Below are positions 6,361-59,155 of a DNA stretch of 59,155 nt, one piece after another. The notes below the pieces were generated by a model. The model was not told the origin of the DNA, did no database searches, and saw only the letters and a list, made by a program, of their open reading frames with translations. This DNA comes from Candidatus Omnitrophota bacterium (GTDB lineage: Bacteria; Omnitrophota; Gorgyraeia; B26-G9). A program made the position numbers and the translations under genes. The stretch spans positions 1 to 59,155 of the forward strand of contig JAHITY010000005.1 of NCBI GenBank assembly GCA_018817165.1, written 5' to 3'. Numbering within the stretch: position 1 is the stretch's first letter; every line of letters starts with the position of its first letter.

Positions 6361-6392
6361 AGAGCCTAGTTTAAAACTAAGCTCTTTTTTTT
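6361..6392 (+). terminator. intrinsic terminator after tRNA-Asp
   Basis: Stem agagcctagt/actaagctct followed by a T8 run. Confidence 0.7.
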
Positions 6393-6592
6393 ATAATAAA
6401 GTTTCGAGATGAGAACCCGAAAAAAGGGTTATAGGGAAAAAGCGGGTTTTTCCTTATAACCCTTTGCTAAAGCTTCGGAGGACAAGTCGGCGTTTGTTTA
6501 TCTATTCTAATTATACCCCCTTGATGTGTGTGTGCTTATCTTCGGTAAAACCGTTTCTCATGCTTAAAAGAGTAACTGTTTTTACCCCCCTA

Positions 6593-48073: not shown

Positions 48074-48550
48074 ATGAAAAAAAGTTTCTGGTTTAAGATC
48101 ATTACGATTATAATAATCCAGGCAATTTTGCTTACCCAAGTAGAATTTGCTTTGGCATCTACATTCAGTAGTAAAGATCTTTGCCGGGAAGCTGCTTTAA
48201 AATATCAGAAAATAACCAGCAGAACAATCAGTTTGATATTTGGAATTGGTTGTTTGCAATTAAATTCCAGATCACGCCAATTAGATAAGCTGTTTAGTTT
48301 ACTTACCAGTGACAGTTTTAAGCTAGCAGAAAATGTATTAGCAAGTAAATCACATAACACTAGTAAAGACATTTATAAAGTTTTTGCTTTAACTGTTTTT
48401 AATTGTAATACAGTTAATAATCAATATGTTGCTTTAATTATAAATAAAGCTCAAGCTGCTGTTTGTTGGATGTCGGGAACTCAGGAATCCAGAGGTCCTC
48501 CAATGATTACAAAAAATATTGAATCAAATTTTAATAGCCGAATTGTTTAG
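48074..48550 (+). CDS. small anchored or secreted protein sharing the N-terminal WFKII motif with the giant ORF
   Basis: SD gtgagga before ATG; N-terminus KKSFWFKIITIIIIQAILLTQVEFALA. Confidence 0.55.
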   Translation: MKKSFWFKIITIIIIQAILLTQVEFALASTFSSKDLCREAALKYQKITSRTISLIFGIGCLQLNSRSRQLDKLFSLLTSDSFKLAENVLASKSHNTSKDIYKVFALTVFNCNTVNNQYVALIINKAQAAVCWMSGTQESRGPPMITKNIESNFNSRIV

Positions 48551-48596
48551 TTTAGCAATTCGGCTTTTTCTTTTTATCTTTAAGGGAGGTGTGGTT

Positions 48597-48941
48597 ATGG
48601 ATGAGAGACGCAGGTTTGAAAGAAATGGTGTTGAGTGTCCTTTACAAATTCAGGCAGTAGAAGCAGCGCAGTACATGATTAGAAATTCATTTTGCAATAA
48701 TGTTAGTCCAGTGGGCATGTCAATAACAACTTTTGATTTTTACCCGGTTAATGGAAAAGTGCATTTGAATTTACTTTCCAATACATTGACTAGCATGGTA
48801 GAAGCAATTGGCAGGGTTGTTTGGGTAAGAGAAATGCCGCATCAGAAAAGATTTAAAGTGGGTATAGAATTTGAGGATCCTAGTGAGAGTTTAATGCAAA
48901 AAATAAAAGCATTGATTTCTAAAAAATCAGAGAGGCAGTAA
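48597..48941 (+). CDS. PilZ-domain protein (c-di-GMP receptor)
   Basis: RRRFER (RRxxxR) followed ~25 aa later by NVSPVG (D/NxSxxG); SD agggagg upstream of ATG 48597. Confidence 0.75.
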   Translation: MDERRRFERNGVECPLQIQAVEAAQYMIRNSFCNNVSPVGMSITTFDFYPVNGKVHLNLLSNTLTSMVEAIGRVVWVREMPHQKRFKVGIEFEDPSESLMQKIKALISKKSERQ

Positions 48942-48943
48942 AC

Positions 48944-49582
48944 ATGAATTATTGCAAATTACCAAGCCATATTATTAAAAGTTTTATATTGCTATTTATA
49001 TTTATATTATTTGGTTTAATTATAAACCGGCTGGGGATTTGTCAAATGGAGAAAATAGATGGTTCAAAAGACCAACAGCAGAAAGCAACATTAACCGAAA
49101 ATAGTTCCGTCAATGTAGTTCCTTATACAAAGGGTGCGGCAGCTTCACCTGCTGGATCATCAATTACTCGGGGAGCAAAACTTGAACAAACGGTTAAGGG
49201 TTTAAATGACGCGGGATATTCATTAGATGAAGTTACTGTAATTTTAAAAAATGATAAAAATGATGCTTCAACTGTAAGCATCGCATGTTTAAAACAGGGG
49301 TTTAATGGACAGCAGATTTATAAATCTTTATTAAAAGCCGGCTATTCAAAAAAAAGTGCTGACTTGGCAGTGCCTTTATCAATCAGGCCGGAGATTCAGA
49401 TTTTGGGCATATCAACAAATTATAATGAAGCGATAGATTCATCATTAGCGGGGAAAAATAATAAAGTTTCTCTATCGGTCTCGGAAAGTGTAATGCAAGT
49501 TCCGGTGTCTGTTGGAGTGACTTTTAATGGATTAAGTAATTGGAATTCATTTCAGGATAAGAGATTTTCAAGTGAAAGGTAG
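48944..49582 (+). CDS. membrane-anchored or secreted protein with 14-residue helical repeats
   Basis: N-terminal hydrophobic segment; repeats TVKGLNDAGYS / LDEVTVILKND / VSIACLKQGFN / GQQIYKSLLKAGYS. Confidence 0.6.
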   Translation: MNYCKLPSHIIKSFILLFIFILFGLIINRLGICQMEKIDGSKDQQQKATLTENSSVNVVPYTKGAAASPAGSSITRGAKLEQTVKGLNDAGYSLDEVTVILKNDKNDASTVSIACLKQGFNGQQIYKSLLKAGYSKKSADLAVPLSIRPEIQILGISTNYNEAIDSSLAGKNNKVSLSVSESVMQVPVSVGVTFNGLSNWNSFQDKRFSSER

Positions 49583-49673
49583 GTATTAAAATGGTTATTA
49601 AAACAAATATTTACGAAATTATAATTATTCTTTTTATCAGTTGATTCAATTTAAAACCTAAAAGGAGGTATTT

Positions 49674-50993
49674 GTGATGAAGAAAAAAATTTTAATAAGT
49701 ATGATAATGATGATTAGTTTTGTTTGTATTTTCTCCGGGGAGGCTAACAGCCAAATTATAGGCAGAAAAACTGATGGCTCTGAATCGGAGGGTCTCCAAA
49801 AATGGATCCTGAAATTGTCCAATAGCTTAGGGGTCAGCTCAAGGCCTAACGTTGTTGCTGTATCAAGTGATGATACCGCGGTAACTGCTGTTCAGAGCGC
49901 GAATGAAGAAACAGCGCTCACTCCTATTCAAACCGCGACATCTGTTGCTTCTGGTTTAATTGCTTCCGGGACAATTGATAAATCTGTTGTTAAAGCAACA
50001 TTGATGAGTTATGGGTATGGAGAAACTGAAGCAGAAATCGCTTTTACAAAAGCAAGTACAAATAATGTTTTAGATAATATGATGGTTGTTCCGGTTGTTG
50101 ATAAGATAACAATATCGCAGGAATCTACTATGTCAACACTTGCTCCTGGAAATAGAGTTAAGCAAGGATTAAAGCCTCAATCAAAGTTTCAAAAGGGCAG
50201 GATCGCTAATTATATGAAAGATCCTAAGCAAACTGTTAGGCAGGATGAAATCAATACAACAACTGAGATGCTGGATGAAGGATATACTGTTGTTCAGGTT
50301 GCGCAAGGTTTCGCTGCTAATGGCTATACTTCTGCTAAAACTGCCGCGATATTTCAAGCGTCGGGGATTAGCGCAAAGGATGCTTATAACGCTTTAAGCA
50401 GTATGGGGATTGGTGAGGGAAAAGGATCAATCCTAAAGTCATGGGCTGCGGTTTTTAAACGTTTTGGTAGTAATGTAATGATTAAAGACCGACAAGAAAC
50501 TCAAAAACAGGAGGCGATTAAATCAACAGTAAATGATCTTGCCTCAGCCGGCTATGATGTCACAGAAGTATTAGGTGTAGTTGTGCAGGATTTAAAAGAT
50601 ACAGGAATGACAGCACAGCAGACAAACGATTTTTTAATTGAAAAAGTAGCTGACGGTACAGGAAAGCCAATAGCTAATTTCAGGAATGCTGGCAATATTT
50701 CTTTAAGTTCAATTGTAGGCGTAATTCAAGGCAGAAAAAATGGTGGATCTGTCTCAATGACTTCTTATGGTCAGGGAGAAATAGCATTAGCATCAGCAAT
50801 GATTAAAGCCGGCTATTCAACATCAGAAGTAGCGTCTTCATTTAAAACAGGATCGTATTCCTATACTAACGCGGATACGCAAAAGATACTATCTCAAACA
50901 AATATATCCAACCCGGCAAGTCCGGATACAACAACTAATAATAATACTCAAGAAGATTTGCTTAAGCGTAATACGCAAGCATTACCGATTTAA
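49674..50993 (+). CDS. secreted protein with 14-residue helical repeats
   Basis: SD aaaggagg; Sec signal KKKILISMIMMISFVCIFSGEANS; repeats such as EMLDEGYT VVQVAQGFAANGYT SAKTAAIFQASGIS AKDAYNALSSMGIG. Confidence 0.65.
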   Translation: MMKKKILISMIMMISFVCIFSGEANSQIIGRKTDGSESEGLQKWILKLSNSLGVSSRPNVVAVSSDDTAVTAVQSANEETALTPIQTATSVASGLIASGTIDKSVVKATLMSYGYGETEAEIAFTKASTNNVLDNMMVVPVVDKITISQESTMSTLAPGNRVKQGLKPQSKFQKGRIANYMKDPKQTVRQDEINTTTEMLDEGYTVVQVAQGFAANGYTSAKTAAIFQASGISAKDAYNALSSMGIGEGKGSILKSWAAVFKRFGSNVMIKDRQETQKQEAIKSTVNDLASAGYDVTEVLGVVVQDLKDTGMTAQQTNDFLIEKVADGTGKPIANFRNAGNISLSSIVGVIQGRKNGGSVSMTSYGQGEIALASAMIKAGYSTSEVASSFKTGSYSYTNADTQKILSQTNISNPASPDTTTNNNTQEDLLKRNTQALPI

Positions 50994-51022: not shown

Positions 51023-54000
51023 ATGTATGACCAAACAGGAAAACTGTGGTTTAAAATCATCGCGTTTATTGTGCTGGAAGCATTTCTATTTACAATTGCT
51101 GATGTTTCTTGGGCAGCTAATTATCGCGATCAGCGCGGCTCGCAGCAAATGGCGCTTGATTCTCAGAAAAATAAAAAAGAGAAAGATAATGTATCGGCTG
51201 ATGCTCTGAGCAATCAGTTGGTGCTTACCCAGCCGGCAATGCCTTATATGGGTTTTGGTCAAATTACCCCTCAAGGACAACAGGGATTAGAATCAATATC
51301 TTTAATTGATACAACGATTTCTGGTCTTTCAATTGCGGGTAATGATTTATCCGATATTTTTACAACGCTTAAGAGTTCGGGATGTTCAGTCAGTGAAGCT
51401 GGCTTTGGCGCGATGCGGCAAGGTTTTGCTAAAAAAGAAATATATCATGCCTTGATCAGCGCGGGATATGATAAAGATGAAGTTAAAACATTGCTGGGCA
51501 GTTTACTGAAAATGGAATCAGAAACAAAAAAACAAGATGAAGCAGCTGTTCAAACAAAGACCGGACCTCCCCAAGAACAGTCGGAACAGGATAAGACTCA
51601 GCTTAATCAAAAAAAGGCAATATTTGAAATCCCCAGTGTAACTGACCTTCCGATTGAAAAAGATGTGACAAAAATTGTAGAAAAAACAGTTCAACAAGGC
51701 GCAGTGCTTCGCCAAACAGTTGAATTTGTTCGTTTAATGATAAATGAAGGAAAACGCGGTAAAGAGCTTATAAAAATTCTTAAAAAAGCTGGACTAAGCA
51801 ATGAAAGAATCACTACAGCGCTCTCCCAATTAGGCTTTAATCTTAAAGATATCATAACTATATTAAAAGATTCAAATATTAGCTGCACGGATATAGTGCA
51901 GGCAATATATAATTCGCAAGTTAACTACAGTGATAAAGACATTTATACCGCATTATTAAAAGCCGGATTTTCCGATCAAGAAATAATTAATGCTTTAAGA
52001 AACGTGGGGATGAATGCCGCAGATATTTTAAAACTGACAACCGAGCTTGGCCGAAGTATGACGCAAGTTGCTGACGCAATGGTAAAAGCAGGATTTAATG
52101 TCGCTGAAATTGCCACTGCCTATGTGCTTAAGGCTATGCAGTGGACATGGGATAATTCAGTTAATGTTATAAATTGCGCGGTCAAAGCTTTTGACGCTTT
52201 TCTTAACAATGTCGGAAGGAAATTCTCTTCAAAACAAGATTTAGCATATGAGCTGATAGTTGATGATATTCTAGCAACCGGAGAAGTCCTGATTCAGAAT
52301 CAAGATGTTATGACCTCAATGGTCGCGATTAAGAATGTTGCCCAGAATCATGGTATTGATTTAGAGGGATATAATCTCAGCCTTAATAGTTTGCTGGAAC
52401 TTGAGGGTGTATCAGTAGTGCATTTGGATGGAGATCACTGGGTTACTTTAGTTGGTATTGATGGTGATCAGGTTACGATTATTGATAATGGCACAGAAGA
52501 AGTTATTTCACTTAGTGAATTTCAGATTCGCTGGGATGGAAATGTTTTAGCTTTTAATCAGCAGGAAATTAGTCAGGATAAATTGATTGATCTGCAGATG
52601 CGCGAGATTCGTGGCGGCAGGGGATTGCTGAGTGTTCTTACTTTAGGTCTTAGTGATGTAGTAGAAAAAGTAGTAGACGTCGTAGTTGATGTGGTTAAGA
52701 AGGTGTGGGATGTTATTAAGGTAGTTGTCATCGTTGTTGTCGCTGCGGTATTAACTTATGTAACTGCCGGAGCTTTAGCTCCGGTTTTTGTCGCGGCTTT
52801 TGCAGCTACAACAGCTGTCGCTGTTGCTGCTTGTACTGCATTGGCAGCTGCTGTTGCCAGCTTTGCCGTAACTTTTTGTATGGGAGTACTTCAAGGACAA
52901 TCATTTGGTGAGGCATTTAAAAGCGCGCTTATTGCTGGTGTGGTTGCCGGGATTGCTTCGGGTATTAGTTCATATGCTAATTTTAGTTCACCAACAGGGA
53001 CCCCAACCACAACAGGAGGTACTTCTTTTGGTGGGTCTGAAGCAGCAGTATCTGGTACAACCGGAGGTGCAGGAGCAGGTGCAGGAGCAGGTGTGGGTGC
53101 AGCAACTGGTTCAGTAGCTAGTTCAGCTGGTGGCACAATCTTAGGTGTAAGCACGGTTTCAATTGCTAATGCAGCTATAAGCGCGGTTAAACAAACTGTT
53201 GTGAGTTATGCCTTGACTAAGTTAATGGATGCAGCAGGGATTGATAATGTTTATTTACGAGCAGGGATTGTTGGCGCGGCCGGAGCTTGGGCAGGTAGTT
53301 CTGCTGGAACACTGAGTGTTGAAAATGGCAGTTGGAGCATGGCAACTGGGGAATTAATGACCTCGGAAATTGCCAAGCAAATGCTCACCGGAGCAGCAAC
53401 TCAAATTTCCATGGAAGCAATCAAACAACAAGGTTATAAGCAGGGATGGGATCCATTACTCACTGATGGTTTATCTTTGACTGTCGGTACTTTTGCCAAT
53501 ATCGCAACCAGTTCAGCATTAGACATATATAATGGCAAAGAAATAAACACAACAAAATTTACTAATCCGGCTGGTGATCGTTTTGATACTAATTTTTCTA
53601 ATTTATTTGTACAGAACTTTAAGTCATCTGTTGGAGAACTAATGGGCGCGTTAGCATCCAAAGCAGTTGACCGGATATGCCTTCAAAATAATGTCGATCC
53701 AATATTGTCTGCCGGATTATCTTCGATGAGTACAAGTCTTTTTACCAGTTTGACCAACTTTGCAGTAAATGATAGTGATTTTGGGATGACTGATATTGGT
53801 AATGCTTTGAGAAAAGGGGCTGGCTCTGCCATGGATGCAGGGTATAAAGATTATTTGATCAGAGATTTAGGTTATACTCAAGCCGAAGCCACTCAGACGG
53901 CATATGGAACTTCTCTTGTATTCAATATGTTCAGTCAAAATTTAGAAAAGGGAACATCCCCAACTCTTGAAAGCACAATCCAGTCACTTTTCAATGATGG

Positions 54001-57000
54001 GGTCAAGAGCCTTGGTTTTACCAATGAATATAATGGTTCATCATATAATCAGACAAAGTACTTAGATACATTTGATTCAGAAATAGATACTCTGGAATAT
54101 ATGATGTATGCCAGTGATGCAGGAATTACTCTTGATGATAATGGGGTATATCGTAATTCTGATGGCAGTGAAAACACTTATATGAATCGCAATAAAGCGA
54201 GAACAGAATATAATCAGTATTGGAAAGAGAAAAACCCGGAAGTTTTTGATCGTTCCTCTGGTACTGCTACTGCATCAACCGGAAATTTAAGTTTCGCTGA
54301 TGCTTGGACAAAAACTCTGGATACGAGAAATCTGAGCAATATGGCCACTCAATCAGCGGCTAATTTTAGTTCAGGGGTAACTAATTTGCAGACTTCTCTT
54401 GATGTTATCAGTATTAATGCCGCGACGATGAACACCGGAGTAGCGGCGAGTTTTGGTTATAATGGGGTTATTCAATTATCCCTTGCACAGGGAACAAATG
54501 TAAACCCAGCACAAGCAATGCAAAATCTGCTTAATTATGGCCAAAATGCGACAAAGATATATGGCGCTAATGGTAAACAAATCGTCGGGCTTATGTTTGA
54601 AAATTCTGATGCTTTCTTTCGCAATAAGGCATCAGCTTATCAGGCTGTAGATACAAGTACTCCTTGGATTAGAAATCAAAGAGTATATACCAGTGATACA
54701 GCTTATAAAGATGTCGGAGTCCAGGCAAATAGTATTAAAGATTTAGTGTCAAATCAAAATCTTAGTCTGGTTTCCTACAGTACAAATAGTTTTCAAACTG
54801 ATTTGCTGTCCATGGCTGCAACAAGTTCATTTGCTGTTAATGGAAGTGTTGTTTATGATCAGTTAAACAATATTTTTATGCTCCAGAATGCGACATTTAC
54901 CTCAGATAGTAAACAGGAAACCGTTGATTTTTCAACTAAGCTGAGCAATGGAGATAAAGTTTATTTTAGCGTTCAAAGCGGTAATGGGTTTAATAATGCT
55001 GTATTAAAAACCAGCGCGGCAAAAGACGCCGCGGTATATACAACCCGGGTAGACGGTGTAGCCAAAGAATTAAAGATCGGCGATATTACTTCCAAGGCCA
55101 GCGATAAGGTTTCTTCATTAGAAGTCGCGCTTACTGTCAGCGCCAGTGGAAATTTGAATTTAGAAAGTGCATCATTAAAAGATGCGAATAAAATATTAGC
55201 TTCTGAAAATAAGCTTGCAGCAGAGATTATTAACTTGCCTTCAGGCTGTATTGTGGGAAATACAACCTTAGAGTTAGCAAATTCTACAAATGGCTTGGCA
55301 GTGACTGCGGTAGAAAATATTGATTCTAATCGGAGCATTAAGTATTCCGGAGAAGACGCGAAAATAACCAGTAAAGCCCAGTTTGTTTATAACCGAGATG
55401 GGAAAATAACCTCAATTGTAAATAAGGATATTTCTGGTAAGAATCTTGGTGTAGATATTCAGACTCAAAAAGGAAGTATTACCCTTTTTGATAATCAGAT
55501 TTCTTTTGCTAATCAAAATAATTCTTTATTAACAAATCTAGGTTCTTTTTTTGGTATGAGCAGCGCGGAAGAGTTTACAATAATTAAAGGAGAAGCATTA
55601 GCGGCTACTAATTATCAAATAATTAATTCTGTGGAACAACAGCAATCTGGAGCAGCCGGCGGAGCCGGAGAAGCCCCTGGTCTTAATAAAATAATCCTGA
55701 TTGGGGATGCTAATGGCAATCAATACATTCAACAAGGTTCGATGTTTACAATCGAAAATAATAATTGGGCGGTTAAAGATAATGATGTAATTCATAATAA
55801 TAGCGGTAAAACAATAACCGTTAGCGGCAAAGCATTTGAAAACGGTGAAATAGCTGCTGTTCATAAGGGTAATATTTTTAAAGCAACAGTTGCTGATGAT
55901 GTCAAGGACCGGGAAAATATTGAATATAAACTTGATGTTAGTGGTTTTAATCTTAATCCCTTGAATATTATACAAGTTGCAGATACAGTGGTTTCTCTGC
56001 CGATCGGAGTAATGAATGCAAACGATATTTATCTTACTGACTCCGGGGCATTAACAATTACTCAAAATATTGCTTTGCAGGGACCTGATGTAAAGGGATT
56101 ATACATATCAGCTGCAAATACTACTTTTACTCTTAACTCAGATGGCAATCAGGCTTTAAAAACTGAGTTCAGTCAGATTGGATTAAGCGGGACTTTGGAA
56201 AATCAAGGCGCGGCTGGTCTAAAAGTCGGCAGTAATCAGTTGATTGGGAATACCCAAGTAGTAGATAATAATCTTTCGACTACAACTGCTGAAAGTAATA
56301 AGATAAAAATCAATGTGACTGAGGATGCCTCTTATTATCAAGGCGGGCAAGTAACCCTGACCAATAGCGGCTTGGTTTATAAACCATCAGATATTCTGGA
56401 AATCACAGGATTGGGAAGCAGTGCTCCGAACTTTAATGCTAATACCGAACTTTACAGCGGATCCTTTGTCAGCGTGGGAAATCTTAAGCTCACCACAGAT
56501 GGCAGTTATAAAATAACTCAAAACAGTGTAATGACCACAAACGCAGACAGCAAAATTCTGATCACACTACTAAATCAATCTGGACAAAATGTCGATACTA
56601 TCATGAATCTCCAAGAAGTCAGCATTCCAGAAACCAATAAAACAGTAGAGTATTCTACTCCTGATTTTCAGAATTTTAGTGAAGCAACCGCGGGAATGAG
56701 TTTTAGTACACAGGGAATTGAGTTTACAATTCAGGATAAAGGATTAAATAAATTTGAAGCACGCAGTCAGCCAATATCTGCTGTTGCCGCCATTGAGTTG
56801 AAAAATAAAGATTCGATTTCCAGTAAGATTGATTTCAAAGAAAATGTCGAGTTGACAATCAGCCCATTGGGCAGCATTGTTACCGCGGATAATGTAACTT
56901 TTAATCAGGTTAATACTCTAAAATCCGGAGCAGAAGTAAAAGTTAATCAGGACAAGTCGGTTGAGATCGTTAGCGGCCAAATTAATTTGGCGAAAGCTGA

Positions 57001-59155
57001 TGCGCTTAAAGGTCAAAATAGTGTAGCCACAATCCAGCCTGATAAAAATAAAGAGCAGAATAAAAAAGATAATGATACAAAACCAGTATATGTCGGAGAA
57101 GCTAAAATTGATCTTTTAGGAAATAATAAATATGACTTATATGGAGATCTGAGTTTTAATAAAGATTCAGGGGTTTATTTAGCAGATAATACAAAAGTTA
57201 CTATTAACAATTTAGCGAAAGATGGCAAGGATTTTGTTAATATTGGTAATACTCGGGCTGTTGCAGGAACTTTTGGCGTAAGCCAGGGACAGATAACCGC
57301 GATAGCAGGCGGCGCGAAGCTTTTAGAGCATATTACCAAAAGCGGTGAATATATAACTTTAGAATATAAAGGAACAAAACAAGTATCCGGAAAATCAATA
57401 GATCAAGGCTGGAAGATCAATGCCAGTCAGGCAGCAATTGACAGCAAAGAATCCTGGTCTGGAACAATTCAAGGGCAGTCAGTAAATTATAGTTTAGCCA
57501 AAAAGAACAATGAGACAATCATCCAGATCAATAATGGCGCTGGAGTAGAATTAAAAAATCAAACCCTTATTGGGTATGGGAATCAAGAGTTAAAAAATGT
57601 AACAGTATTCGCCACTCAGAAATTAGCTAATGGAAATTTTGTTTATACGACTACAGATGAAAAAGCAATTGGCTTTCAGCAATTACAGAGTACATCAGCT
57701 GGTGGACCAGCCAGTCAGATGCTGGGCAAAACAATTGTTAGTATTTCCGATTCTTTTGATAATGGGCAGAGGATAAGAACATATGGCGCTCAGACAAATG
57801 GCGCATTTTGCTTAACTTTTACTGCTGATAAGGAACTGAAAGGAATCAATGTAGCAGAACAATTGGCCGGCAGTTCATTGGAAATAGTTGGCAGTGGAGC
57901 AAAAGTCAATGGTGAGACATTTTTAAAGGGAGCAATAAGTTATAACTGGAACGGCAAAGAGATCGCCAGCAGTTATAGCAAGGGCACAACACTATTAGAA
58001 GCAAATACGAGTTATGGTCAGGTAACTCGAGAATATTTAGGAGCAGACAGTTGGAAGTTTAATGCCAGCCAGTCGGCAATAGATAATAAAGCAGTATGGA
58101 AAGGAACATATAGAAATCAGTCTGTGGACTATAATGTAGCTGATAAAAATGGTGAGACCATAATCCAGATAAATAAAGGATTAGGCCTAAAAGTAGAGAA
58201 TCAGACTATTGTTGGTTATGGCAAACAGGAATTAAAAAATGTAGATGTAACTGTAACCCAGAAATTAGCCAATGGACAGTTTGTTTATACAACAACTGAT
58301 AAAGACGCGATTGGCTTACAGCAATTACAGAGCACATCAGCCGGCGGCGCGGCTAGTCAGATGCAAGGCCGGACAATTGCCAGTGTTTCTGATTCTTTAG
58401 TCGGTGGTAAAACAGTCAGAACCTATGGGGAGACTTCAGTAAAAAAAGATGGAATTAATTTTGCTCTGACTTTTACCGCAGATCAATATCTTAGTACTGC
58501 GGTTAATGTTTCAGAGCAATTAGCTGGAAGTTATTTAGAGATCGCGGGTAGCGGAGCAAAAATCCAAGGCAAAGATATAATCAGCGGATCAATTGATTAT
58601 GCGGCTAATGACAAGGGAGTGGTTGTCGGAACTTTTAGTCAAGGCTCTGAACAATATCAGGGGACAATAAAAGGTACTAATCTCAAGGTAATCAGTGTAT
58701 ATAATGGCACAGTCAATGGTGTGGACAAAGGTTGGACAATGCAGTATCAAGGCATTGGGGTGCTCAAAGAAGGCGCGGCTAAATTTGATGTCCAAATAAA
58801 TGGCAAAACATTTGAAGCAACTTTAGTCAGTAGTCAGGAAGGGTATTCTGCGCAGATTAATCAAAATGTTGGTATGAATAAGGATTTCGTGGATTCCGAA
58901 GGCGGCAAACATGGTGATGTAGAACTATTCGCCACCCAGCTTTTAGCCAGTGGTAATGTTGAATACATGGCAAAAGATAAGGGTAAGGGCGATTGGAAAC
59001 AGGAAATCACAGCAGGTGTTGCCGGTGCGCAGATAAAATATGAAGGTGCTAATAATCTGAGCGTTAAAGATCAGATAAATGCTGATGGCAAAACAATCAG
59101 AACATATACTGCAGCTAATGATGGTAATTTCCAAATAGTATTTGTCGCGGACAGA
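51023..59155 (+). CDS. giant surface-protein gene, 5' part only (2,711 codons, no stop before the window end)
   Basis: ATG 51023 preceded by SD aagggggagg (51006-51015). I read the frame codon by codon to base 59155 and found no stop; only short antisense or out-of-frame ORFs appear in the track here. Confidence 0.9.
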   Translation, partial: MYDQTGKLWFKIIAFIVLEAFLFTIADVSWAANYRDQRGSQQMALDSQKNKKEKDNVSADALSNQLVLTQPAMPYMGFGQITPQGQQGLESISLIDTTISGLSIAGNDLSDIFTTLKSSGCSVSEAGFGAMRQGFAKKEIYHALISAGYDKDEVKTLLGSLLKMESETKKQDEAAVQTKTGPPQEQSEQDKTQLNQKKAIFEIPSVTDLPIEKDVTKIVEKTVQQGAVLRQTVEFVRLMINEGKRGKELIKILKKAGLSNERITTALSQLGFNLKDIITILKDSNISCTDIVQAIYNSQVNYSDKDIYTALLKAGFSDQEIINALRNVGMNAADILKLTTELGRSMTQVADAMVKAGFNVAEIATAYVLKAMQWTWDNSVNVINCAVKAFDAFLNNVGRKFSSKQDLAYELIVDDILATGEVLIQNQDVMTSMVAIKNVAQNHGIDLEGYNLSLNSLLELEGVSVVHLDGDHWVTLVGIDGDQVTIIDNGTEEVISLSEFQIRWDGNVLAFNQQEISQDKLIDLQMREIRGGRGLLSVLTLGLSDVVEKVVDVVVDVVKKVWDVIKVVVIVVVAAVLTYVTAGALAPVFVAAFAATTAVAVAACTALAAAVASFAVTFCMGVLQGQSFGEAFKSALIAGVVAGIASGISSYANFSSPTGTPTTTGGTSFGGSEAAVSGTTGGAGAGAGAGVGAATGSVASSAGGTILGVSTVSIANAAISAVKQTVVSYALTKLMDAAGIDNVYLRAGIVGAAGAWAGSSAGTLSVENGSWSMATGELMTSEIAKQMLTGAATQISMEAIKQQGYKQGWDPLLTDGLSLTVGTFANIATSSALDIYNGKEINTTKFTNPAGDRFDTNFSNLFVQNFKSSVGELMGALASKAVDRICLQNNVDPILSAGLSSMSTSLFTSLTNFAVNDSDFGMTDIGNALRKGAGSAMDAGYKDYLIRDLGYTQAEATQTAYGTSLVFNMFSQNLEKGTSPTLESTIQSLFNDGVKSLGFTNEYNGSSYNQTKYLDTFDSEIDTLEYMMYASDAGITLDDNGVYRNSDGSENTYMNRNKARTEYNQYWKEKNPEVFDRSSGTATASTGNLSFADAWTKTLDTRNLSNMATQSAANFSSGVTNLQTSLDVISINAATMNTGVAASFGYNGVIQLSLAQGTNVNPAQAMQNLLNYGQNATKIYGANGKQIVGLMFENSDAFFRNKASAYQAVDTSTPWIRNQRVYTSDTAYKDVGVQANSIKDLVSNQNLSLVSYSTNSFQTDLLSMAATSSFAVNGSVVYDQLNNIFMLQNATFTSDSKQETVDFSTKLSNGDKVYFSVQSGNGFNNAVLKTSAAKDAAVYTTRVDGVAKELKIGDITSKASDKVSSLEVALTVSASGNLNLESASLKDANKILASENKLAAEIINLPSGCIVGNTTLELANSTNGLAVTAVENIDSNRSIKYSGEDAKITSKAQFVYNRDGKITSIVNKDISGKNLGVDIQTQKGSITLFDNQISFANQNNSLLTNLGSFFGMSSAEEFTIIKGEALAATNYQIINSVEQQQSGAAGGAGEAPGLNKIILIGDANGNQYIQQGSMFTIENNNWAVKDNDVIHNNSGKTITVSGKAFENGEIAAVHKGNIFKATVADDVKDRENIEYKLDVSGFNLNPLNIIQVADTVVSLPIGVMNANDIYLTDSGALTITQNIALQGPDVKGLYISAANTTFTLNSDGNQALKTEFSQIGLSGTLENQGAAGLKVGSNQLIGNTQVVDNNLSTTTAESNKIKINVTEDASYYQGGQVTLTNSGLVYKPSDILEITGLGSSAPNFNANTELYSGSFVSVGNLKLTTDGSYKITQNSVMTTNADSKILITLLNQSGQNVDTIMNLQEVSIPETNKTVEYSTPDFQNFSEATAGMSFSTQGIEFTIQDKGLNKFEARSQPISAVAAIELKNKDSISSKIDFKENVELTISPLGSIVTADNVTFNQVNTLKSGAEVKVNQDKSVEIVSGQINLAKADALKGQNSVATIQPDKNKEQNKKDNDTKPVYVGEAKIDLLGNNKYDLYGDLSFNKDSGVYLADNTKVTINNLAKDGKDFVNIGNTRAVAGTFGVSQGQITAIAGGAKLLEHITKSGEYITLEYKGTKQVSGKSIDQGWKINASQAAIDSKESWSGTIQGQSVNYSLAKKNNETIIQINNGAGVELKNQTLIGYGNQELKNVTVFATQKLANGNFVYTTTDEKAIGFQQLQSTSAGGPASQMLGKTIVSISDSFDNGQRIRTYGAQTNGAFCLTFTADKELKGINVAEQLAGSSLEIVGSGAKVNGETFLKGAISYNWNGKEIASSYSKGTTLLEANTSYGQVTREYLGADSWKFNASQSAIDNKAVWKGTYRNQSVDYNVADKNGETIIQINKGLGLKVENQTIVGYGKQELKNVDVTVTQKLANGQFVYTTTDKDAIGLQQLQSTSAGGAASQMQGRTIASVSDSLVGGKTVRTYGETSVKKDGINFALTFTADQYLSTAVNVSEQLAGSYLEIAGSGAKIQGKDIISGSIDYAANDKGVVVGTFSQGSEQYQGTIKGTNLKVISVYNGTVNGVDKGWTMQYQGIGVLKEGAAKFDVQINGKTFEATLVSSQEGYSAQINQNVGMNKDFVDSEGGKHGDVELFATQLLASGNVEYMAKDKGKGDWKQEITAGVAGAQIKYEGANNLSVKDQINADGKTIRTYTAANDGNFQIVFVADR
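51758..52132 (+). repeat. about nine contiguous 14-residue repeats within the giant ORF (aa 246-370)
   Basis: GKELIKILKKAGLS NERITTALSQLGFN LKDIITILKDSNIS ... DKDIYTALLKAGFS DQEIINALRNVGMN AADILKLTTELGRS MTQVADAMVKAGFN VAEIATAYVLKA. Confidence 0.8.
52136..52558 (+). other. C39-like papain-fold cysteine peptidase domain inside the giant ORF (aa 372-512)
   Basis: VINC(385)AVKAF ... VVHLDGDH(472)WVTLVGIDGDQVTIID(488)NG ... EFQIRWDGNVLAF. Cys-His spacing is 87 and His-Asp spacing is 16, as in bacteriocin-processing C39 domains. Confidence 0.6.
52715..52972 (+). other. cluster of ~3 predicted transmembrane helices inside the giant ORF (aa 565-650)
   Basis: IKVVVIVVVAAVLTYVTAGALAPVFVAAFAATTAVAVAACTALAAAVASFAVTFCMGVL...ALIAGVVAGIASGI. 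Confidence 0.6.
57340..59155 (+). repeat. tandem 214-227-aa repeats at the distal end of the visible giant ORF (at least 3 copies, continuing off the window)
   Basis: Equivalent Trp codons at 57410, 58052 and 58733. Shared blocks: WK(I/F)NASQ.AID, ETIIQIN, GYG.QELKNV, TQKLANG.FVYTTTD, LQQLQSTSAGG.ASQM, RTYG, LTFTAD, EQLAGS.LEI.GSGAK. Confidence 0.85.

What the first reader, a model, noticed from the sequence alone, without database searches (positions are those of the whole stretch)
52136..52624. In-cis C39-like peptidase followed by a double-glycine-like motif: possible self-processing site
Residues 372-512 look like a bacteriocin-processing C39 peptidase: NC(385)AVKAF, HLDGDH(472)WVTLVGIDGDQVTIID(488)NG, EFQIRWDG. 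The His-Asp spacing of 16 matches known C39 triads. Twenty residues later comes KLIDLQMREIRGG|RGLL (GG at aa 531-532, nt 52613-52618). It has hydrophobic residues at -4 (I), -7 (M) and -12 (L) relative to the GG, the pattern of double-glycine leaders cleaved by C39 domains. The motif lies between the N-terminal module and the TM cluster. Cleavage there would separate the anchor, repeat and peptidase module from the giant C-terminal body. C39 domains normally sit on ABC exporters, not inside their potential substrate.
Basis: partly seen in the sequence, partly recalled or inferred. Interest (0 to 1): 0.75.

Follow-up and report, generated by a model that had tools for sequence, protein, structure and literature searches.

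The report
Self-cleaving protease module in giant protein
A giant Omnitrophota membrane protein carries a bacteriocin-type (C39) cysteine protease followed 20 residues later by that protease's own textbook cutting signal, so the protein very probably cuts off its conserved 532-residue head from its giant body, a prediction that can be tested directly.

Summary
Residues 360-512 of a giant ORF (start nt 51023, still open after 2711 codons at the window end) are a genuine C39 peptidase. Pfam PF03412 scores 41.8 bits against a cut-off of 22. The AlphaFold2 model has pLDDT 89.7, and its best structural matches are LahT150, PCAT1 and ComA (TM 0.74). C385, H472 and D488 are invariant in orthologues.

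KLIDLQMREIRGG (aa 520-532) matches the canonical double-glycine leader. In 104 related modules from giant proteins of Omnitrophota and Elusimicrobiota, G(-2) is invariant and -1 is A, G or S. L(-12), E/Q(-8), M/L(-7) and I/L/V(-4) dominate. The spacing to the domain is fixed at 24-26 residues in 71 of 104. There is only one above-chance site per protease copy. Orthologue conservation drops from 0.81 to 0.26 right after GG.

The best reading is single-site intramolecular autoprocessing after G532. Cleavage itself is inferred, not shown.

Novelty is moderate. N-terminal C39 domains in these giants were reported in 2023 without a site. In-cis C39 cleavage after GG was shown in 2026 for the StbD toxin, where the GG lies upstream of the domain. 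I found no earlier description of a downstream, full-leader arrangement.

The parts
51023..59155 (+). 5' part of a giant ORF. It has 2711 codons with no stop and runs off the window end. The complete orthologue P0008 is 7815 aa.
   Evidence: The start is fixed by the conserved N-terminus MYDQTGKLWFK in four orthologous loci.
51023..51115 (+). N-terminal signal-like or anchor segment (aa 1-31). It contains a hydrophobic stretch within aa 5-32 and a possible signal-peptidase site SWA|AN.
   Evidence: Kyte-Doolittle maximum is 2.17. Identity among orthologues is 0.83. Whether it is cleaved or acts as an anchor was not determined.
51305..52135 (+). N-terminal helical-repeat module (aa 95-371). It has two arrays of about 10-residue helices with a 14-residue period, split by a disordered acidic/Lys-rich linker (aa 167-212).
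   Evidence: AlphaFold2 model m10d0cd468bb0 has mean pLDDT 76. Weak UBA-like Pfam hits. No natural structural match. Orthologue identity is 0.77-0.85.
52100..52558 (+). C39 (papain-fold) cysteine peptidase domain, aa 360-512. The catalytic residues are C385 (nt 52175-52177), H472 (52436-52438) and D488 (52484-52486).
   Evidence: Pfam PF03412 at 41.8 bits. AlphaFold2 pLDDT 89.7. Foldseek matches to LahT150, PCAT1 and ComA with TM 0.74. PDB profile hits at 1e-10. The triad is conserved.
52559..52582 (+). Short linker (aa 513-520) between the last strand of the peptidase and the leader-like helix.
   Evidence: It is placed with high confidence in the model (blocks 151-170 have pLDDT 92 and 88). 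The spacing from G506 to G(-2) is 24-26 aa in 71 of 104 relatives.
52583..52618 (+). Double-glycine-type leader motif in cis: L521 IDLQ M526 RE I529 R G531 G532.
   Evidence: It matches the family logo L(-12) S/T D/E x E/Q M/L x x I R/K G [AGS]. That logo equals the canonical leader. PSSM score is 24.1 bits. The model has a helix at aa 523-528 and pLDDT 93 up to the GG.
52616..52621 (+). Predicted scissile bond between G532 and R533.
   Evidence: This is inferred from C39 specificity, which cuts after GG, GA or GS. Orthologue identity falls from 0.66-0.81 to 0.26 at this point, and pLDDT falls to 58 and 48.
52619..52720 (+). Amphipathic Val/Asp/Lys-rich stretch directly after the site (aa 533-566), poorly conserved.
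   Evidence: The model shows a helix at aa 535-547 with low confidence.
52721..52972 (+). Hydrophobic transmembrane-like cluster (aa 567-650). It has two strong segments and one weaker segment.
   Evidence: Kyte-Doolittle maxima are 2.62 and 2.23. Orthologue identity is 0.21.
52973..59155 (+). A Gly/Ser/Thr/Ala-rich linker followed by the fast-evolving giant body. There are no Pfam matches. The body contains tandem units of about 214 aa near nt 57230-58500.

Best explanation
The region encodes a catalytically intact C39 cysteine peptidase built into a giant membrane protein of an Omnitrophota bacterium. Its own substrate signal follows it in the same chain.

Proposed mechanism:
1. The segment L521-G532 is a canonical double-glycine leader. 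It folds back as a short helix into the hydrophobic substrate groove of the domain. L521, M526 and I529 serve as anchors, and G531-G532 lie in the active-site cleft.
2. C385, H472 and D488 cut once, after G532, most likely within the same molecule.
3. This separates the conserved 532-residue head (signal-like N-terminus, helical repeats, peptidase, leader) from the giant, rapidly evolving body. The body then starts at R533 with an amphipathic stretch and a transmembrane-like cluster.

Shown here: domain identity, the fold, triad conservation, motif conservation, the fixed spacing, and one site per protease copy. Inferred: docking of the leader in the groove, the cleavage itself, cis rather than trans action, and the biological purpose. 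The purpose would be maturation or release of the body from its head.
For: Domain identity:
- Pfam C39 scores 41.8 bits against a cut-off of 22. 63 of 65 family modules hit PF03412, best E 5e-24.
- Relatives with a shorter Cys-His insert align to profile positions 8-131, which includes the Cys.
- The AlphaFold2 model has pLDDT 89.7 and pTM 0.82.
- Foldseek top hits are LahT150 in complex with leader, PCAT1 and ComA, at E 2e-6 to 2e-5 and TM 0.74 over 132-145 of about 140 residues.

Triad conservation:
- The triad is invariant in close homologues.
- Over 180 domain copies the counts are C 118 plus S 26, H 165, and D 135 plus E 24.

Leader motif:
- Over 104 sites, G(-2) is 104/104. Position -1 is A 65, G 20, S 14. 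L(-12) is 79, E/Q(-8) 73, M/L(-7) 73, I/L/V(-4) 89.
- This is the published recognition motif for C39 domains.
- The spacing from the domain to the GG is 24-26 aa in 71 of 104 relatives, although module identity to the window is only about 20-30%.
- There is one above-chance site per protease copy and none elsewhere in proteins of 3000-7800 aa.
- In the model, the leader segment is as confident as the domain (pLDDT 88-93) and confidence collapses right after the GG.

Conservation boundary and internal control:
- Orthologue identity is 0.81 in the domain, 0.66 in the leader and 0.26 at +1..+20.
- Five copies that lost Cys and His also have decayed downstream motifs, with T at -4 and K at -7. 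The two scored with the PSSM give 4.6 and 7.1 bits.

Precedent: the C39 domain of StbD-CT cleaves itself in cis after a GG.
Against: - No cleavage product was observed.
- The usual oxyanion Gln six residues before the Cys is absent (S379). A conserved Asn precedes the Cys instead.
- Topology is unresolved. If the N-terminal segment is a signal peptide, the peptidase lies outside the cytoplasm, unlike PCAT peptidases.
- Some intact-triad copies in relatives have no cis leader. These include the C-H-E 'ERAPP' type and a 'VWGN' type. The domain can therefore exist without a downstream site.
- A strict textbook regular expression matches only 56 of 99 Cys-type copies (chance 4.8%). Many of the remainder are near-matches.
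Confidence: 0.65

Rival explanations
1. Pseudo-substrate latch. The leader-like segment docks in the groove but is not cut, or is cut only slowly. It keeps the peptidase closed until a trigger frees it to cut other proteins, such as prey or partner proteins or other giant proteins.
For: - The docking evidence and the fixed spacing fit a latch as well as a substrate.
- Degenerate copies without Cys and His still keep L(-12) and G(-2).
- Some intact copies lack any cis leader and so must have other substrates.
- The 2023 preprint also leaves other substrates open.
Against: - The P2-P1 pair G-[AGS] is kept in 99 of 104 sites. That pair makes a sequence cleavable and is not needed merely for binding.
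- Conservation ends exactly at the bond.
- In the one tested C39 with a GG in the same chain, the GG is cut.
Confidence: 0.15
2. Cleavage occurs at G532 but between molecules (in trans), for example after clustering of several giant proteins in the membrane.
For: C39 domains of PCATs normally act on separate chains. In Elusimicrobiota relatives, a dead copy sits next to an active one.
Against: The tightly fixed linker length and the confident intramolecular placement are not needed for trans action. StbD-CT is obligately cis.
Confidence: 0.12
3. The motif is an export and cleavage signal read by a separate peptidase-containing ABC transporter (PCAT) encoded elsewhere. The in-chain C39 domain would then have another role.
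For: The motif is indistinguishable from PCAT leader peptides.
Against: - PCAT leaders are N-terminal, whereas this one is 520 residues in.
- The motif always sits 24-26 residues behind its own C39 domain.
- There is no other C39 domain and no PCAT in the 59 kb window. Neither the visible ORF nor the complete 7815-aa orthologue has an ABC domain.
- The upstream synteny in four genomes holds only housekeeping, PilZ and unknown genes.
Confidence: 0.05
4. Chance resemblance: a degenerate C39-like fold plus a fortuitous GG.
For: Pfam aligns only the C-terminal two thirds of the profile in the window protein.
Against: All the conservation, structure and uniqueness tests argue against chance.
Confidence: 0.01

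Closest known systems
C39 peptidase domains of PCAT/AMS ABC exporters and their double-glycine leader peptides (LahT, ComA, PCAT1)
   Same: - They share the fold and the Cys-His-Asp triad, with the same His-Asp spacing of 16.
- They share the recognition motif: L(-12), E(-8), L/M(-7), I/V(-4) and G-[GAS], with the leader as a short helix.
   Different: - Here there is no ABC membrane or ATPase domain.
- The leader is not at the N-terminus of a small separate peptide. It lies 20 residues behind the peptidase in the same giant chain.
- The domain has an extra N-terminal helix and an insertion of about 13 residues (Cys-His spacing 87 against 74).
- The canonical Gln before the Cys is absent.
StbD-CT (and, according to its authors, Cpe1) C39 peptidase toxins that auto-process in cis after a diglycine (bioRxiv 10.64898/2026.05.07.723447)
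   Same: A C39 domain embedded in a large effector cuts its own chain after GG, intramolecularly. The structures are related: Foldseek hits 8ssm and 9l5u, and PDB profile hits at 1e-6 to 2e-7.
   Different: - In StbD-CT the GG lies about 25 residues upstream of the catalytic Cys, in the linker, and cleavage frees the peptidase as a toxin.
- Here the GG lies downstream and carries a full canonical leader. Cleavage would free everything C-terminal to the peptidase.
- The domain here sits near the N-terminus of a membrane protein, not at the C-terminus of a polymorphic toxin with an immunity gene.
N-terminal C39 domains of Omnitrophota giant proteins (West-Roberts et al. 2023, bioRxiv 10.1101/2023.11.21.568195; PF03412 architecture cluster in bioRxiv 10.64898/2026.06.07.730766)
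   Same: This is that kind of protein: a giant ORF in Omnitrophota with a C39 domain near a signal-like N-terminus and transmembrane segments. The complete orthologue has an SF2 ATPase domain, which I take to be the 'SecA-like' domain those authors describe. They already proposed that the domain may cut the giant protein.
   Different: Neither paper mentions a double-glycine motif (zero occurrences of that term). The first preprint suggests cutting 'into multiple smaller polypeptides'. The scan here finds a single site per protease copy.
C39-like domain (CLD) of HlyB-type RTX exporters
   Same: Same fold (Foldseek 3zua, 7sgr). It also binds its substrate.
   Different: By definition the CLD lacks the catalytic Cys and does not cut. 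Here the Cys is conserved.
Viral papain-like leader proteases (potyvirus HC-Pro, arterivirus nsp1, FMDV Lpro) and toxin cysteine protease domains (MARTX/TcdB CPD). This comparison is from my own knowledge and was not tested here.
   Same: The logic is the same: a cysteine protease near the start of a very long chain cuts once at its own C-terminal side, often at a Gly-Gly or Gly-Ala pair.
   Different: These are different families. No meaningful match was found in the viral structure library. Several of them cut between the two glycines rather than after them.

Membership tests
Peptidase family C39 (Pfam PF03412 / MEROPS C39) | Profile match above the curated threshold | tested here: met
   41.8 bits against 22, E 1.2e-10. 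63 of 65 related modules match.
Peptidase family C39 (Pfam PF03412 / MEROPS C39) | Papain-like fold that superposes on solved C39 domains | tested here: met
   AlphaFold2 pLDDT 89.7. Foldseek matches to 6mpz, 4ry2, 3k8u and 5xe8 with TM 0.74 and 132-145 aligned columns.
Peptidase family C39 (Pfam PF03412 / MEROPS C39) | Cys-His-Asp triad, with Cys on the first core helix and Asp 16 residues after His | tested here: met
   C385, H472 and D488 are invariant in orthologues and conserved family-wide. The Cys column aligns with LahT Cys27, and Pfam covers that region in relatives (profile positions 8-131). Geometry in the model could not be measured.
Peptidase family C39 (Pfam PF03412 / MEROPS C39) | Gln about 6 residues before the Cys (proposed oxyanion-hole residue) | tested here: not met
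   Position -6 is S, G or T, and a conserved Asn sits at -1. The role of this Gln is itself doubted for LahT, so this weighs little.
Peptidase family C39 (Pfam PF03412 / MEROPS C39) | Cuts after GG, GA or GS of a leader with hydrophobic -4, -7 and -12 | not testable with these tools
   A perfectly matching sequence is present and conserved. Proteolysis needs an experiment.
PCAT/AMS bifunctional ABC exporter | C39 domain fused to an ABC transmembrane domain and an ABC ATPase | tested here: not met
   No ABC_membrane or ABC_tran hit in aa 1-2711 or in the complete 7815-aa orthologue.
PCAT/AMS bifunctional ABC exporter | Substrate is a separate peptide with an N-terminal leader | tested here: not met
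   The leader is internal (aa 521-532) and in the same chain. No other leader-like site exists in the window.
C39-like domain (CLD) of RTX exporters | Catalytic Cys lost, so the domain is non-proteolytic | tested here: not met
   Cys385 is invariant in orthologues.
C39 peptidase toxins of polymorphic toxin systems (Tox-PL-C39, StbD-CT, Cpe1) | C-terminal toxin domain of a delivery protein, followed by an immunity gene | tested here: not met
   The domain lies at aa 360-512 of a protein of about 7800 aa. The gene end is outside the window, so the downstream gene was not seen.
C39 peptidase toxins of polymorphic toxin systems (Tox-PL-C39, StbD-CT, Cpe1) | Self-cleavage site is a GG in the linker upstream of the domain | tested here: not met
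   Here the conserved G-[AGS] is 44 residues downstream of the catalytic Asp.
Omnitrophota giant proteins with an N-terminal C39 domain | Giant ORF in an Omnitrophota genome, with C39 near a signal-like N-terminus, transmembrane segments and an SF2/SecA-like ATPase further on | tested here: met
   Orthologous loci are all Omnitrophota or PVC MAGs with conserved synteny. Hydrophobic segments are present. ResIII/SF2 domain in the 7815-aa orthologue. Published description.

The most novel reading that the evidence does not exclude
The module is a built-in, single-turnover 'leader peptidase' checkpoint. It follows the logic of a PCAT exporter (bind leader, cut after GG, release cargo into the membrane pathway) but without the ABC transporter. 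It would couple membrane insertion or export of a body of 7000 or more residues, driven by the protein's own SF2 ATPase, to removal of the head. It may leave the two pieces non-covalently joined as a releasable joint. A sister branch would run the same reaction with a Ser nucleophile on a papain fold.
Probability: 0.15. Interest if true: 0.8.

Novelty: new variant of a known kind. Interest (0 to 1): 0.55.

Why it matters
Giant proteins of Omnitrophota reach tens of thousands of residues and are linked to a predatory or episymbiotic lifestyle. How they are matured, inserted and exported is unknown, and so is whether they act as one chain.

This finding turns the vague published idea that the C39 domain might cut the giant protein into an exact, testable prediction. 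The predicted event is one cut after G532, by C385, H472 and D488, guided by L521, M526 and I529. The prediction carries over to more than 100 sequence clusters in at least two phyla.

It also shows that the double-glycine leader and C39 pair, known from bacteriocin and quorum-peptide export, has been reused as an intramolecular processing module with the leader downstream of the enzyme. The Ser-for-Cys branch is a natural experiment on nucleophile exchange in a papain fold. For annotation, the motif marks where mature chains begin.

Tried and rejected
- **Polyprotein idea (many GG sites along the giant protein): rejected.** A leader PSSM finds only the site(s) directly behind each C39 copy in 15 proteins of 2700-7800 aa. 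All other scores are below the shuffle maxima. Caveat: the PSSM was trained on those same sites.
- **A separate PCAT or second C39 domain in the window: not found**. Only a LolCDE/MacB-like ABC system and housekeeping genes are present.
- **Function of the N-terminal helical repeats: led nowhere.** AlphaFold2 plus Foldseek returned only designed helical repeats, with TM below 0.2. I treat the UBA-like Pfam hits as generic helical similarity.
- **Resemblance of IRGG to the ubiquitin tail LRGG together with the UBA-like hits:** considered a coincidence and not pursued. USP matches were weak (E > 0.02).
- **Viral structure library:** no meaningful match.
- **Pfam on the body (aa 701-2711):** no hits.
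- **Topology of the head (cytoplasmic or periplasmic):** could not be settled from hydropathy and charge alone.
Full report
**1. What is there**

The finding lies in a single open reading frame that starts at nt 51023 on the + strand. The frame is still open after 2711 codons at the window end. A hydrophobic N-terminal segment falls within aa 5-32, and a strongly hydrophobic cluster at aa 553-625 follows the GG.

The window has about 37% G+C and carries housekeeping genes, including IspD/IspF, CysS, ClpC-like, H+-PPase, TilS and a LolCDE-like ABC system. Four orthologous loci with the same upstream gene order (IspD-IspF-hexapeptide transferase-CysS-ROK-unknown-PilZ-unknown-unknown-giant gene) come from Omnitrophota or PVC-group MAGs. 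One orthologue is complete at 7815 aa.

**2. Is it a C39 peptidase?**

Yes. Pfam PF03412 matches at E 1.2e-10 and 41.8 bits, against a gathering score of 22. It covers only profile positions 45-131, the half with His and Asp.

The missing N-terminal part is explained by an insertion. The Cys-His distance is 87 residues here, against 74 in LahT147. In relatives with a shorter insert, Pfam covers positions 8-131, which includes the Cys. The family profile aligns its Cys column with Cys27 of LahT.

An AlphaFold2 model of aa 355-548, built on 64 diverse relatives, has mean pLDDT 89.7 and pTM 0.82. Its best matches in the PDB are the double-glycine protease LahT150 in complex with its leader, then PCAT1 and the ComA peptidase domain. 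E-values are 2e-6 to 2e-5, TM is 0.74 normalised on the target, and 132-145 columns of about 140-residue domains align. A profile of the family finds the same proteins by sequence, at 1e-10 to 4e-9.

The triad is invariant in close homologues. Over 180 domain copies in 149 cluster representatives, the Cys column holds C 118 times and S 26 times. The His column holds H 165 times. The Asp column holds D 135 times and E 24 times. The canonical Gln before the Cys is not present, and a conserved Asn directly precedes the Cys instead. The LahT structure paper itself doubts the role of that Gln.

**3. Is the GG motif real?**

Yes, and this is the strongest result. A full HMMER scan of 1.84 billion representatives with aa 360-545 gave 181 hits. 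Nearly all are internal domains of very long or truncated proteins, and many alignments end at query positions 172-176, which is the GG.

In 104 sites aligned to the window's G531:
- G(-2) is present in 104 of 104.
- Position -1 is A (65), G (20) or S (14).
- L(-12) occurs 79 times, and that position is hydrophobic in 97%.
- S/T dominates at -11.
- E/Q(-8) occurs 73 times.
- M/L(-7) occurs 73 times.
- I/L/V(-4) occurs 89 times.
- R/K(-3) occurs 69 times.

This is the published recognition signal of C39 domains: Leu(-12)-X3-Glu(-8)-Leu(-7), hydrophobic -4, -7 and -12, and a GG, GA or GS end.

A PSSM of the motif scores 24.1 bits at the window site. The 95th percentile of shuffle maxima is 13.0, and the next-best site in the 2711 visible residues scores 3.8. 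It is the only hit above 13 bits in all six frames of the window. A strict textbook regular expression matches 56 of 99 Cys-type copies and 14 of 23 Ser-type copies, against 4.8% of random 50-residue windows.

**4. Evidence that enzyme and motif belong together**

- The distance from the conserved Gly of the W-x-G motif to G(-2) is 24-26 residues in 71 of 104 modules, with a range of 20-37. Module identity to the window is only about 20-30%.
- Each protease copy has one site directly behind it. In the proteins of 2700-7800 aa that were scanned, no other position exceeds the shuffle maxima. This argues for a single cut, not polyprotein processing. The PSSM was trained on these same sites.
- In the model, the linker and leader are placed as confidently as the domain itself (pLDDT 88 and 93 for model residues 161-180). 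There is a short helix at aa 523-528 and a strand-like contact just before the GG. Confidence drops to 58 and 48 immediately after the GG. In the LahT complex, too, part of the leader forms a short two-turn helix that places the -4, -7 and -12 side chains in a hydrophobic groove.
- Among five orthologues, mean identity is 0.81 in the peptidase, 0.66 in the leader, 0.26 in the next 20 residues, 0.21 in the hydrophobic cluster and about 0.4 in the body.
- Five Elusimicrobiota-type copies that have lost Cys and His also carry a decayed motif (LDxETKKNTKGT), with T at -4 and K at -7. The two that were scored give 4.6 and 7.1 bits. They are followed by an intact copy with an intact leader.

**5. 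Mechanism**

The best-supported reading is that the leader folds back into the substrate groove of its own peptidase. C385, H472 and D488 then cut once after G532. The head (signal-like N-terminus, two arrays of short helices, peptidase, leader) is thereby separated from the body. The body would begin with an amphipathic stretch and a transmembrane-like cluster.

The steps shown here are the domain identity, the conservation and the architecture. Docking, cleavage, cis action and purpose are inferred.

An experimental precedent exists. The C39 toxin domain of StbD-CT cuts its own chain after G157-G158, strictly in cis and only under reducing conditions. In that protein the GG lies upstream of the domain.

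The rivals are a non-cleaved pseudo-substrate latch, cleavage in trans, and recognition by a separate PCAT. No PCAT or second C39 domain is found in the window. No ABC domain is found in the visible ORF or in the complete orthologue, whose only other Pfam hit is an SF2/ResIII ATPase near aa 5175-5293.

Topology remains open. The N-terminal segment could be a cleaved signal peptide (SWA|AN) or an anchor. I could not decide on which side of the membrane the peptidase sits.

**6. Comparison with what is known**

The domain is a member of family C39. The protein is not a PCAT, not a C39-like domain of an RTX exporter, and not a C-terminal polymorphic toxin.

West-Roberts et al. (2023) reported C39 domains near the N-terminus and signal peptides of Omnitrophota giant proteins. 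[quoted passage not shown] A 2026 preprint lists a 24-protein PF03412 architecture cluster. Neither text contains the term 'double-glycine', and literature searches found no description of a C39 domain followed by its own leader.

The presence of the domain is therefore known, and in-cis C39 cleavage after GG is known in principle. I found no earlier description of three things: the conserved, canonical, downstream leader; the exact predicted bond; and the single-site architecture across Omnitrophota and Elusimicrobiota.

**7. Verdict**

The arrangement is a new variant of a known kind. Interest is moderate to fairly high, mainly because it makes the processing of giant proteins directly testable.

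Noticed in passing
related proteins P0070, P0076, P0083, P0108, P0126, P0073, P0140, P0116, P0114 and others (not in the window): A sub-family of the same module has Ser in place of the catalytic Cys (motif HFGQSAF). It keeps His, Asp and the R-G-A motif. In 17 of 22 cases a transmembrane-like stretch follows the motif within 120 residues. This is either a Ser nucleophile on a papain fold or an inactive binder.
   Followed up: partly
related proteins P0021, P0040, P0050, P0081, P0094 (P0050 and P0081 are named Elusimicrobiota; P0021 is an unnamed JGI/IMG protein; P0040 and P0094 were not looked up): These proteins have tandem copies. The first copy has lost Cys and His (V/I/G and L/M/V/D in their place), and its downstream motif has also decayed (LDxETKKNTKGT|FF). 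The second copy is intact and has an intact leader.
   Followed up: partly
related proteins P0018, P0020, P0024-P0027 (multi-copy; P0018 is named Omnitrophota): The second and third C39 copies have a Cys-His-Glu triad and a Pro-rich tail ('ERAPP...'). They have no downstream leader motif, so they presumably have other substrates.
   Followed up: no
window 51305-52135 (aa 95-371): The head contains two arrays of about 10-residue helices with a 14-residue period (consensus roughly xxEIxxALxxAGFS). A disordered acidic/Lys-rich linker separates them. Pfam UBA_DHX29 scores 33 bits, above its cut-off. AlphaFold2 pLDDT is 76. There is no natural structural match.
   Followed up: partly
window 51023-51130 (aa 1-36): The N-terminal sequence KLWFK...ADISWAANYR is unusually well conserved for a signal peptide (0.83 identity among orthologues). 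It contains Glu and Asp inside the hydrophobic stretch, which suggests a specific sorting or anchoring role.
   Followed up: no
window 48074-50993 and loci L001-L004: Four genes directly upstream are syntenic with the giant gene in all four orthologous genomes: an unknown 158 aa, a PilZ domain protein, an unknown 212 aa, and an unknown 439 aa with a weak HTH hit. They may be functionally linked to the giant gene.
   Followed up: partly
orthologue P0008 (7815 aa; contig JAAEQR010000072, locus L004): Apart from C39, the only Pfam hit in the complete orthologue is a ResIII/SF2 ATPase (motif PTGTGKT) at about aa 5175-5293. My reading of the printed sequence suggests further hydrophobic, possibly transmembrane, stretches near aa 4000-4050 and 6390-6450; I did not compute these.
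   Followed up: partly
window about 57230-58500 (aa about 2070-2497): The body contains tandem units of about 214 residues. Two adjacent copies are 58% identical, and a third may begin near aa 2510.
   Followed up: partly
window 52619-52972 compared with L001-L004: The stretch right after the GG differs in kind from the orthologues. The window has a Val-rich low-complexity hydrophobic run. The orthologues share a motif DWERFKxGFWxxTMGTxQxLxAPxVxLY that the window lacks.
   Followed up: no
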